From Escherichia coli (GTDB taxonomy: Bacteria > Pseudomonadota > Gammaproteobacteria > Enterobacterales > Enterobacteriaceae), in NCBI RefSeq assembly GCF_044647545.1, contig NZ_CP172818.1: a stretch of 64,000 nucleotides of DNA; one strand, 5' to 3'. Shown here piece by piece: positions 46,601 through 49,026 of the stretch. Numbering within the stretch: the first letter of the stretch is position 1; every line of letters starts with the position of its first letter. Position numbers: made by a program.

Positions 46601-49026
46601 AAAGCCCCTCGATTGAGGGGCTGGGAATGGGTGATCAACGGGAAGAAAAACGGCAGGCCAGCGTCTTTTTTCAGACGCGGTAAGACAAAATGTCGAACAC
46701 ACTGAACCATACATCCTCCCGGCAAATTGTCCGGCATTATACTCATAGCCAGAAGCGGTGCAAGCATTTGATGCAATATTTTGTCAGCGCAAACGGTTTA
46801 TTTGAATCAAAAGTCAAAATGTATGCATTTTTATTTGCTGTGATTCTGGAGGAGAACTGTCGTTCGGTATCAATAATTGCAGACATTTCCTGCTTTTTTC
46901 TTTTTCACTTTCACCCAATCAGATATGCATTTTATTCCATTCATCCGACTTATAGGGCGGAGTGTGAAAACGAACGGCTAACACTATTGCTTACTGCGCA
47001 GGGATGCGCGCTATCACTTTAATTTCAAAATCAAAGCCTGCCAGCCAGGTAACACCCACCGCCGTCCAGGTTGGATAAGGTGGGGCGCTAAATATTTCAT
47101 TTTTCACCGTCATGATGTCTTCAAATTGTTTTTCTGGATCGGTATGAAAGCTCGTAACATCAATGATATCGTCAAAAGTGCATCCCGCAGCTGCCAGGGT
47201 CGCATGCAAATTATCAAATGCCAGTCTGACTTGTTGCTGAAAATCGGGTTCTGGTGTTCCGTCCTCTCGACTTCCTACTTGCCCGGAAACAAACAGCAAA
47301 TCGCCGGAACGAATAGCCGCAGAATAACGATGCTCAGCATACAGTGAATGTCGGCCAGCAGGGAAAACAGCGGTTCTTTCTACCATTTGGTTATCCTCAA
47401 GATTTACGACATGAACAGAAGATTTATATTTACCGGGAGCCGCTTTTAGGGAATGACGTTAGTAAACAAAACCCAGATATCATGGATAATGGCTGGGCTT
47501 AATTGAGCGTAGTCGGTTATGCGCCAAACGCGCCATCAATGGTATGCATCGCGCCGGTAACAAAACTGGCTTCTGGCCCTGCTAACCATGCGACCATTCC
47601 AGCGACCTCTTCCGGTTGCCCATGTCTTTTGATAGCCATAAAACCATGCAACATATCGCGCATTGGCCCGTTGGCGGGATTAGCGTCGGTATCTATTGGC
47701 CCTGGCTGGACGACGTTGATGGTGATCCCACACGGTCCAAAATCACGGGCCAGCCCGCGCGCCATGCCTTGCAGGGCAGATTTACTGGCGGCATAAGCAG
47801 CCATGCCTGCAACAGGCATACGATCGCCATTCACGGAGCCGATGATTAAGATGCGCCCGCCTTCGGGCATCTGCCGGGCGGCTTCAACAGAGGCATGGTA
47901 AGGGGCATGAATATTGATTTTGAAAAGGCGATCAATATCGTCGGCATTTAATTCCAGGGCATTGCCAAAGACGCCAATACCTGCATTTACCACCAGGATA
48001 TCCAATGCGCCGCTCTTACGAACGACATCAATAACAGCGTCTCTGTCAGCACTATCTGTGAATACTGCTGTCGCTCCAGTCTCATGTGCCAGGCGTTCAG
48101 CGGCATCTTTCGACCCCGCATAGGTGAATCGTACATTGGCTCCATCGGTGACGAAACGACGTACGATAGCGGCACCGATTCCACGGCTGCCACCGAGGAT
48201 GAGAACTGTCTTACCGGTAAAAGCGCCCATAAGGACTCCTTGATTTATTATGTAGCATGCATTACAAAACTGTTTTAACTTTCTGTCAACAAGTTTTGTA
48301 ATGGTCACTAAAAAACAATCTCGTGTTCCAGGTCGTCCCAGACGTTTCGCTCCTGAGCAGGCAGTCTCTGCGGCAAAAGTGCTTTTTCACCAAAAAGGTT
48401 TCGATGCAGTCAGTGTTGCTGAAGTTACTGATTATCTTGGTATTAACCCCCCGAGCCTCTACGCGGCTTTTGGCAGTAAGGCTGGGTTGTTTAGCCGTGT
48501 ACTCAATGAATATGTCGGTACGGAAGCTATTCCGCTTGCCGATATTCTTCGTGATGATCGTCCGGTAGGCGAGTGCCTGGTTGAGGTATTAAAAGAAGCG
48601 GCGCGCAGATATAGCCAAAACGGCGGCTGCGCTGGCTGTATGGTTCTTGAAGGTATTCATAGTCATGATCCACAAGCGCGTGATATTGCCGTTCAATATT
48701 ATCACGCCGCAGAAACGACCATTTATGACTATATCGCCAGGCGGCATCCACAAAGCGCACAATGTGTGACTGATTTTATGAGTACCGTGATGTCAGGGCT
48801 TTCTGCGAAGGCACGGGAGGGGCACTCCATCGAACAACTCTGTGCAACAGCTGCCCTGGCGGGGGAAGCGATAAAAACTCTTCTCAAGGAGTGATGCTGG
48901 CCTTGATCCGAAAGGCGGGAACGCGCCTGCCGATAAGTTGTGATAAGACAATAATTCACGCGTTAAGGCTGGCGGAATTGATCATCTTTTCGTATAACGA
49001 TAGAAATGAAACATTGTTTTAATTAA

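What the first reader, a model, noticed from the sequence alone, without database searches (positions are those of the whole stretch)
48231..48300. Extended palindrome abutting the bdcR start codon
TACAAAACTG...CAAGTTTTGTA (48261-48300) has near reverse-complementary arms and ends exactly at the bdcR ATG, in the 70-bp spacer shared with divergent bdcA. This is the expected geometry for an autoregulated TetR repressor controlling its divergent neighbour, and may be the BdcR operator.
Basis: inference. Interest (0 to 1): 0.3.

Follow-up and report, generated by a model that had tools for sequence, protein, structure and literature searches.

The report
Two BdcR operators, not one palindrome
The long palindrome next to the E. 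coli bdcR start codon is real, but it is made of the facing halves of two separate, shorter repressor-binding sites that are conserved across many bacteria and closely match the crystallised operator of the related Pseudomonas repressor CifR.

Summary
The perfect inverted repeat is 12 bp, CATTACAAAACT (48260-48271) and AGTTTTGTAATG (48292-48303), with 20 bp between the arms, inside and just beyond the 70-bp bdcA/bdcR spacer. A repeat this long arose in 0.06% of shuffles.

In 80 bdcA<->bdcR loci from alpha-, beta- and gammaproteobacteria, the conserved units are two local palindromes of the form TGTA-N8-TACA:
- O1 (48248-48269) covers the shared -10 of the bidirectional promoter and the bdcA transcription start.
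- O2 (48294-48315) covers the bdcR start codon and abuts the bdcA -35.

The long-range repeat itself is not conserved outside E. coli (7-8 of 12 positions).

A weight matrix built from the other genera ranks O1 and O2 first and second of 63,973 window positions. It also ranks two sites in the P. aeruginosa morB-cifR spacer first and second; the top one is the crystallised CifR operator. BdcR keeps every DNA-contact residue of CifR.

The most likely mechanism is one BdcR dimer per operator, repressing both genes. BdcR binding itself is inferred, not shown. This is a new member of a known kind and of modest interest.

The parts
48260..48271 (.). It is the right half-site of O1 and contains both -10 hexamers.
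48292..48303 (.). Right arm of the inverted repeat (AGTTTTGTAATG). It is the left half-site of O2 and includes the bdcR ATG. A48292 is G in K-12.
48248..48269 (.). Operator O1: TTATGTA-GCATGCAT-TACAAAA, with cores TGTA at 48251-48254 and TACA at 48263-48266. It spans -16 to +6 of bdcA and -29 to -8 of bdcR.
   Evidence: It is the only exact TGTA-N8-TACA in the 64-kb window. A matrix built from other genera scores it 25.7 bits, against 8.1 for the best position outside O1 and O2. It is conserved in all 80 loci.
48294..48315 (.). Operator O2: TTTTGTA-ATGGTCAC-TAAAAAA, with cores TGTA at 48297-48300 and a degenerate TAAA at 48309-48312. It spans +18 to +39 of bdcR and -41 to -62 of bdcA. Its right half is codons 3-5 of bdcR.
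   Evidence: It is the top matrix hit in the window at 25.8 bits and is conserved in all 80 loci. Synonymous sites within it are constrained.
48240..48268 (+). bdcR promoter: -35 TTGATT (48240-48245), 17-bp spacer, -10 TACAAA (48263-48268). The start site is at about 48277.
   Evidence: PMC3946193; PMC12825309 Table S2; read directly from the sequence.
48261..48289 (-). bdcA promoter: -35 TTGACA (48289-48284), 17-bp spacer, -10 TGTAAT (48266-48261). The start site is at about 48253.
   Evidence: PMC3946193; PMC12825309. The GTCAA block is invariant in the alignment.
48236..48241 (-). bdcA ribosome-binding site AAGGAG (top strand CTCCTT). It overlaps the bdcR -35.
47517..48230 (-). bdcA coding sequence (SDR-family oxidoreductase).
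48301..48894 (+). bdcR coding sequence (TetR-family repressor, related to CifR).

Best explanation
The bdcA/bdcR control region holds two CifR-type TetR operators, O1 and O2. Each is a 22-26 bp dyad built on TGTA-N8-TACA with A/T-rich outer ends, and their centres are 46 bp apart. They face each other, and in E. coli both are near-consensus copies of the full half-site C-A-Y-TACA-AAA.

Proposed mechanism:
- One BdcR dimer binds each operator.
- The Pro50-Pro51 helix-turn-helix sits in the major groove near the GTA/TAC cores.
- Arg12 of the invariant N-terminal GRPR arm enters the narrow A/T-rich minor groove at each outer end.
- A dimer on O1 covers the shared -10 of the bidirectional promoter and the bdcA start site, so it blocks RNA polymerase in both directions.
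- A dimer on O2 sits just upstream of the bdcA -35 and at +18 to +39 of bdcR. There it adds to bdcA repression and acts as a roadblock for bdcR (autoregulation).
- An unknown ligand releases BdcR, possibly an electrophile sensed through the invariant Gly112-Cys113.

Shown here: the sequence features, their conservation, the dyad symmetry, the DNA-level constraint, the match to the CifR operator, and conservation of the contact residues. Inferred: BdcR binding itself, the stoichiometry, the role of each site and the ligand.
For: - All 80 loci from three proteobacterial classes keep bdcA divergent from bdcR, with a 67-79 bp spacer.
- Within the spacer the conserved blocks are the two dyads, the two -35/ribosome-binding-site blocks and nothing else.
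- Exact TGTA-N8-TACA occurs 108 times in the control regions and twice in 428 kb of flanking DNA.
- The halves are dyad-symmetric, with a symmetric covarying pair in O1: A..T in 51 sequences and T..A in 10, of 74.
- The right half of O2 lies inside the coding sequence. Thr codons there end in A or T in 127 of 128 cases, against 14% elsewhere in the same genes (median GC 66%).
- Matrices built only from O1 sites find E. coli O2 as the second-best position in the window, and matrices built only from O2 sites find O1 as second-best.
- The same matrix ranks two sites in the P. aeruginosa morB-cifR spacer first and second, at 37.0 and 30.3 bits against 2.6 for the next.
- The top P. aeruginosa site matches all eight base identities published for the CifR co-crystal DNA (PMC10827105).
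- CifR is the closest solved relative with bound DNA (E = 1.6e-18).
- CifR Arg6, Pro44, Pro45, Tyr48, Lys54, Gly106 and Cys107 align to BdcR R12, P50, P51, Y54, K60, G112 and C113. All seven are invariant or nearly so in 108 family members.
- Published promoter and start-site data place O1 on the shared -10.
- BdcR is described as a negative regulator of bdcA in papers citing Ma et al. 2011.
Against: - No BdcR-DNA binding data could be read. Ma et al. 2011 is not held.
- A published ChIP-seq set for YjgJ (BdcR) did not yield a usable motif model.
- E. coli O2 has a degenerate right core (TAAA), and the 8-base core with one mismatch is not rare on its own in the window: 20 hits against 15 expected.
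- The right half of O1 is also the -10 of both promoters, and the left half of O2 lies where an UP element would, so part of the conservation could be for the promoter.
- The O1-O2 spacing varies from 45 to 51 bp, so any cooperation between the two sites is not tied to a fixed helical phase.
Confidence: 0.8

Rival explanations
1. One reading: the whole 43-bp inverted repeat is a single BdcR operator, with the two 12-bp arms as its half-sites.
For: The arms are perfect and statistically unusual. They lie in the shared spacer and bracket the bdcA -35 and promoter spacer.
Against: - The arm centres are 31 bp apart, whereas a CifR dimer spans one helical turn and binds a 23-27 bp site.
- The arm-to-arm match is only 7-8 of 12 positions in other genera.
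- The 20 bp between the arms is unconserved apart from the bdcA -35.
- Each arm has a conserved partner 8 bp away, outside the repeat.
Confidence: 0.05
2. The conserved blocks are promoter and translation signals only (a shared -10, an UP-like A/T tract, an A/U-rich start region). No repressor binds them, and the inverted repeat is a by-product of a symmetric bidirectional promoter.
For: The region is a validated bidirectional promoter with a shared -10. The right half of O1 is the -10, and the left half of O2 lies at -41 to -47 of bdcA.
Against: - The promoter's symmetry centre (about 48265) is not the centre of the inverted repeat (48281.5).
- The left half of O1 and the right half of O2 have no promoter role, yet carry invariant TA cores in mirror image.
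- The same motif is the crystallised operator of a homologous repressor.
Confidence: 0.08
3. The repeat works as an RNA hairpin (or a DNA cruciform) that hides the bdcR AUG and controls translation.
For: As RNA, 48255-48308 folds at -14.4 kcal/mol with a z-score of -3.2, and the AUG is paired.
Against: - The mapped bdcR start site (about 48277) lies in the loop and the bdcA start site (about 48253) lies to the left, so neither mRNA contains both arms.
- The pairing is not maintained in other genera.
Confidence: 0.04
4. Chance similarity in A/T-rich intergenic DNA.
For: The spacer is A/T-rich, and the 12th pair is strain-specific.
Against: The shuffle probability is 0.0006, and both arms fall on elements conserved across three bacterial classes.
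Confidence: 0.02

Closest known systems
CifR and its two operators in the morB-cifR spacer of Pseudomonas aeruginosa (PDB 6NSN; PMC10827105; Ballok et al. 2012)
   Same: - A divergent TetR repressor next to an oxidoreductase gene.
- Two operators 46-50 bp apart, with the same TGTA-N8-TA(C/T)A design and A/T-rich outer ends.
- One site overlaps the candidate -10 hexamer and the other abuts the divergent gene's -35-like GTCAAG block (read by eye from the sequence).
- All DNA-contact residues and the Gly-Cys sensor pair are conserved.
   Different: - Only about a third of residues match in the HMMER alignment.
- The bdc spacer is 70 bp against 125 bp, so O2 overlaps the bdcR start codon instead of lying in a 5' leader.
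- The neighbouring gene is an SDR rather than an FMN oxidoreductase with an MFS transporter; cif, the epoxide hydrolase of that operon, is known from PMC10827105.
- The ligand of BdcR is unknown.
Classical TetR/tetO and QacR/IR1 operators
   Same: A palindromic site overlapping the promoter, between the repressor gene and its divergent target, with autoregulation.
   Different: [quoted passage not shown]
- QacR binds two dimers on one 28-bp site.
- Here the sites are 22-26 bp, probably bind one dimer each, and are read in part by an N-terminal arginine in the minor groove (by analogy with CifR).
Bidirectional promoters with a shared -10 (Warman et al. 2021; PMC12825309)
   Same: bdcA/bdcR is one of the five cases tested in vitro. 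The divergent start sites are about 23-24 bp apart and use one -10 region.
   Different: That work did not address BdcR or its sites. The inverted repeat under review is not the promoter's own symmetry.

Membership tests
TetR-family repressor with a divergent target (operator in the shared spacer) | The regulator carries the TetR_N helix-turn-helix domain. | tested here: met
   PF00440, E = 2.5e-13; RefSeq annotates it as TetR/AcrR family.
TetR-family repressor with a divergent target (operator in the shared spacer) | The neighbour is divergent and the spacer is under 200 bp, conserved across relatives. | tested here: met
   The spacer is 70 bp here and 67-79 bp in all 80 loci.
TetR-family repressor with a divergent target (operator in the shared spacer) | A dyad-symmetric site of about 15-30 bp overlaps core promoter elements. 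| tested here: met
   O1 covers the shared -10 and the bdcA start site. Its symmetry and covariation are documented, and the promoter positions.
TetR-family repressor with a divergent target (operator in the shared spacer) | The repressor binds the site directly and a ligand releases it. | not testable with these tools
   This needs EMSA, footprinting or ChIP. The primary paper on BdcR is not held.
CifR-type operator and regulator | The operator sequence matches the crystallised CifR site. | tested here: met
   The matrix built from bdc sites ranks two sites in the morB-cifR spacer first and second in a 5.6-kb P. aeruginosa locus. The crystal DNA positions match the top-ranked site uniquely.
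CifR-type operator and regulator | The DNA-contact residues are conserved (Arg6, Pro44-Pro45, Tyr48, Lys54). | tested here: met
   They align to R12, P50-P51, Y54 and K60, present in 105-108 of 108 sequences.
CifR-type operator and regulator | Two operators lie in the spacer. | tested here: met
   O1 and O2 are 45-51 bp apart in 80 loci, against 50 bp in P. aeruginosa.
CifR-type operator and regulator | Epoxide or electrophile sensing through the Gly-Cys pair. | tested here: inconclusive
   G112-C113 are invariant in 108 of 108 sequences, but no ligand data exist.
Bidirectional promoter with a shared -10 | Divergent start sites 10-23 bp apart that use one -10 region, with both directions active in vitro. 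| not tested
   Taken from PMC12825309. The hexamers were checked in the sequence. The tool's own promoter scan reported nothing in this region; neither -10 hexamer meets its stated rule (TGTAAT lacks A at position 2, TACAAA lacks T at position 6).

The most novel reading that the evidence does not exclude
BdcR is a cysteine-based electrophile or epoxide sensor of the CifR type. On this reading, the bdcA-bdcR cassette (two operators plus a bidirectional promoter packed into 70 bp) is a horizontally spread detoxification switch, with the highly conserved SDR enzyme BdcA as its output. It would not primarily be a c-di-GMP biofilm-dispersal device. A further implication is that the conserved N-terminal Thr-Thr-Lys of BdcR proteins is dictated by the O2 operator DNA rather than by protein function.
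Probability: 0.3. Interest if true: 0.6.

Novelty: new member of a known kind. Interest (0 to 1): 0.4.

Why it matters
BdcA and BdcR are cited as biofilm-dispersal factors. Yet in the literature I could search, the BdcR binding site is undefined, and K-12 RefSeq still calls BdcR 'putative'.

This analysis gives exact, testable operator coordinates and explains why a long palindrome appears there. It also ties the system to the structurally solved CifR switch. That link predicts which residues and bases matter (Arg12, Pro50-Pro51, the TGTA/TACA cores and the outer A/T tracts). It also suggests a class of inducers (electrophiles acting on Cys113), which could clarify the disputed function of BdcA.

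The region is also a compact example of a repressor acting on a bidirectional promoter, the control of which PMC12825309 describes as unknown.

Tried and rejected
- The consensus promoter scan found nothing. Neither -10 hexamer meets its stated rule (TGTAAT lacks A at position 2, TACAAA lacks T at position 6), so I used published promoter calls instead.
- Ma et al. 2011 (PMC3057496) and Ballok et al. 2012 (PMC3457200) are not held. Supplements of the YjgJ ChIP-seq paper and of the CifR preprint are not held either. I therefore could not check for published BdcR binding data or read the morB-proximal CifR site directly.
- The 8-base core with one mismatch is not significant in the window, so I replaced it with a 28-column matrix.
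- RNA hairpin: it folds well but was rejected on start-site positions and lack of conservation.
- E. coli population data are too uniform for footprinting.
- A single-operator reading and a pure-promoter reading were both considered and rejected (see the rival explanations).

Full report
**Identity of the region.** The window is E. coli DNA. bdcA (47517-48230, minus strand) encodes an SDR oxidoreductase. bdcR (48301-48894, plus strand) encodes a TetR-family regulator. They are divergent, with a 70-bp spacer at 48231-48300. N-terminal alignment of 16 family members supports the annotated bdcR start codon.

**The observation.** The inverted repeat exists and is longer than reported. Its arms are 12 perfect base pairs, CATTACAAAACT (48260-48271) and AGTTTTGTAATG (48292-48303), separated by 20 nt, and the right arm contains the ATG. 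In 5000 dinucleotide shuffles of 48231-48330, an arm of 12 bp or more arose in 0.06% and an arm of 11 bp or more in 0.26%. K-12 has G in place of A48292, so its repeat is 11 bp. Only 13 of 4770 E. coli genomes are at least 99% identical to this window over the 140 bp around the spacer.

**What was already published.**
- Shimada et al. predicted the bdcA promoter as TTGACA-17-TGTAAT and the bdcR promoter as TTGATT-17-TACAAA (PMC3946193).
- A 2026 study used bdcA/bdcR as one of five bidirectional promoters. It detected both divergent RNAs in vitro and gives cappable-seq start sites in its Table S2 (PMC12825309).
- As far as the plain-text table can be read, the start sites map to about 48277 for bdcR and about 48253 for bdcA.
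- BdcR is described as a negative regulator of bdcA by papers citing Ma et al. 2011. I could not read that paper, and I found no published operator.
- A ChIP-seq compendium included YjgJ (the former name of BdcR) but could not fit a motif model.

**Comparative evidence.**
- BdcR homologues outside E. coli and Shigella are about 52-64% identical.
- A scan of one genome per species returned 80 loci from alpha-, beta- and gammaproteobacteria. All of them have bdcA (75-84% identical; one of the two Raoultella terrigena copies, L005, aligns over only 74 residues) divergent from bdcR, with a 67-79 bp spacer.
- The spacer shows a sharp footprint:
  - CTCCTTGAG, which is the bdcA ribosome-binding site and the bdcR -35;
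  - a dyad, TTAATGTAG-N6-CTACATAAA (O1);
  - about 17 unconserved bases;
  - GTCAAGG(AG), which is the bdcA -35 and the bdcR ribosome-binding site;
  - a second dyad, ATTTTGTA-N8-TACAAAAA (O2), which runs into the first codons of bdcR.
- The TA dinucleotides of the cores are invariant or nearly so.
- Exact TGTA-N8-TACA occurs 108 times in these control regions and twice in 428 kb of flanking DNA.
- The halves are mirror images. One O1 position pair covaries symmetrically: A..T in 51 sequences and T..A in 10, of 74.
- The right half of O2 is coding, but the constraint acts on the DNA. Thr codons there end in A or T in 127 of 128 cases, against 14% elsewhere in the same genes (median GC 66%). 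Lys is AAA in 65 of 72 cases, against 37% elsewhere.

**Mapping back to E. coli.**
- O1 is 48248-48269 (TTATGTA GCATGCAT TACAAAA). O2 is 48294-48315 (TTTTGTA ATGGTCAC TAAAAAA). Their centres are 46 bp apart.
- A 28-column matrix built without the E. coli-type locus ranks O2 and O1 first and second of 63,973 window positions, at 25.8 and 25.7 bits, with the next at 8.1.
- A matrix built from O1 sites alone finds O2 second-best, and a matrix from O2 sites alone finds O1 second-best, so the two are one motif.
- The long-range match between these two halves is 11-12 of 12 in E. coli but typically 7-8 of 12 elsewhere. The big palindrome is therefore a by-product of two neighbouring dyads whose inner halves both happen to be near-consensus in E. 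coli.

**Link to a solved system.**
- Of the solved relatives, only CifR of P. aeruginosa has operator data. It scores E = 1.6e-18, just behind the uncharacterised 2i10 at 8.1e-19.
- According to PMC10827105, CifR has two operators in the morB-cifR spacer and binds one dimer per 23-27 bp site.
- In the crystal, Pro44-Pro45 sit in the major groove and Arg6 enters the A/T-rich outer minor groove (T4-T6 and A23'). Gly106-Cys107 are needed for epoxide-induced release.
- I fetched the P. aeruginosa locus. The bdc-derived matrix ranks two spacer sites first and second, at 37.0 and 30.3 bits against 2.6 for the next, with centres 50 bp apart.
- The top site, TTTGTATCGATCACTATAAA, is the only match in the locus to the eight base identities given for the crystal DNA. 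That the second site is the published morB-proximal operator is my inference.
- BdcR numbering is CifR numbering plus 6. R12, P50, P51, Y54, K60, G112 and C113 correspond to the CifR contact and sensor residues, and are present in 105-108 of 108 family members.

**Mechanism proposed.**
- One BdcR dimer binds each operator.
- O1 spans -16 to +6 of bdcA and -29 to -8 of bdcR, so occupancy should block RNA polymerase in both orientations at the shared -10.
- O2 lies 4 bp upstream of the bdcA -35 and at +18 to +39 of bdcR. Plausible roles are extra repression of bdcA and a roadblock for bdcR.
- These roles, the stoichiometry and the inducer are inferences by analogy with CifR.
- The O1-O2 spacing varies from 45 to 51 bp, which argues against strictly phased cooperation between the two dimers.

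**Rivals.**
- A single 43-bp operator is unlikely on geometry and conservation.
- A promoter-only explanation does not account for the outer halves, the symmetry or the CifR match.
- An RNA hairpin folds at -14.4 kcal/mol with z = -3.2. It is excluded because neither mRNA contains both arms and the pairing is not conserved.
- Chance is excluded by the shuffles and by the comparative data.

**Verdict.** This is a new, sequence-defined member of a known kind, a CifR-type TetR operator pair on a bidirectional promoter. It is of modest interest. It would matter more if the conserved Cys113 proves to make BdcR an electrophile sensor.

Noticed in passing
window 49614-51427 (tandem array at 50169-50391): The yjgL-like gene contains an 18-nt tandem repeat of 12.4 copies that encodes LNNLQK-type units. 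One unit is 17 nt and breaks the reading frame, splitting the gene into ORFs 49614-50315 and 50399-51427. Strain ECONIH1, which is identical across bdcA-bdcR, has more copies and an intact frame. This may be a slippage-prone, variable locus.
   Followed up: partly
window 48277-48300: E. coli bdcR has no ribosome-binding site: it reads CAACAAG where the family keeps CAAGGAG. Its 24-nt leader carries an ACA 12 nt upstream of the AUG (48289-48291), matching the distance at which PMC5001579 lists MazF cleavage of the yjgJ mRNA. BdcR may be poorly translated, or translated under stress.
   Followed up: partly
bdcR residues 112-113 (window 48634-48639): Gly-Cys is invariant in 108 of 108 BdcR-family proteins and aligns with the Gly106-Cys107 epoxide-sensing pair of CifR. 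This suggests BdcR responds to electrophiles.
   Followed up: partly
L003-L081 compared with window 47517-48894: BdcA is 75-84% identical across alpha-, beta- and gammaproteobacteria, while its regulator is only 52-64% identical. E. coli BdcR is no closer to other Enterobacteriaceae than to Alphaproteobacteria. This points to a mobile cassette with a strongly conserved enzyme. Raoultella terrigena has two copies; in one of them (L005) the bdcA match covers only 74 residues.
   Followed up: no
L002 (SFGN01000138.1): A contig labelled as a Lachnospiraceae metagenome-assembled genome carries bdcA-bdcR with BdcR 99% and BdcA 97% identical to the E. coli proteins. It is probably a binning contaminant.
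   Followed up: no
window 47400-49000: This bdcA-bdcR allele is rare: only 12 of 4815 complete E. coli genomes are at least 99% identical, and the rest fall at 95-99%. About 11% of genomes lack the region, and three copies are on plasmids.
   Followed up: no
window 48309-48317 (bdcR codons 3-5): The conserved N-terminal Thr-Thr-Lys (Thr-Lys-Lys in E. coli) of BdcR proteins is encoded by the right half of O2. The synonymous-site bias there suggests the operator constrains the protein sequence, not the other way round.
   Followed up: yes
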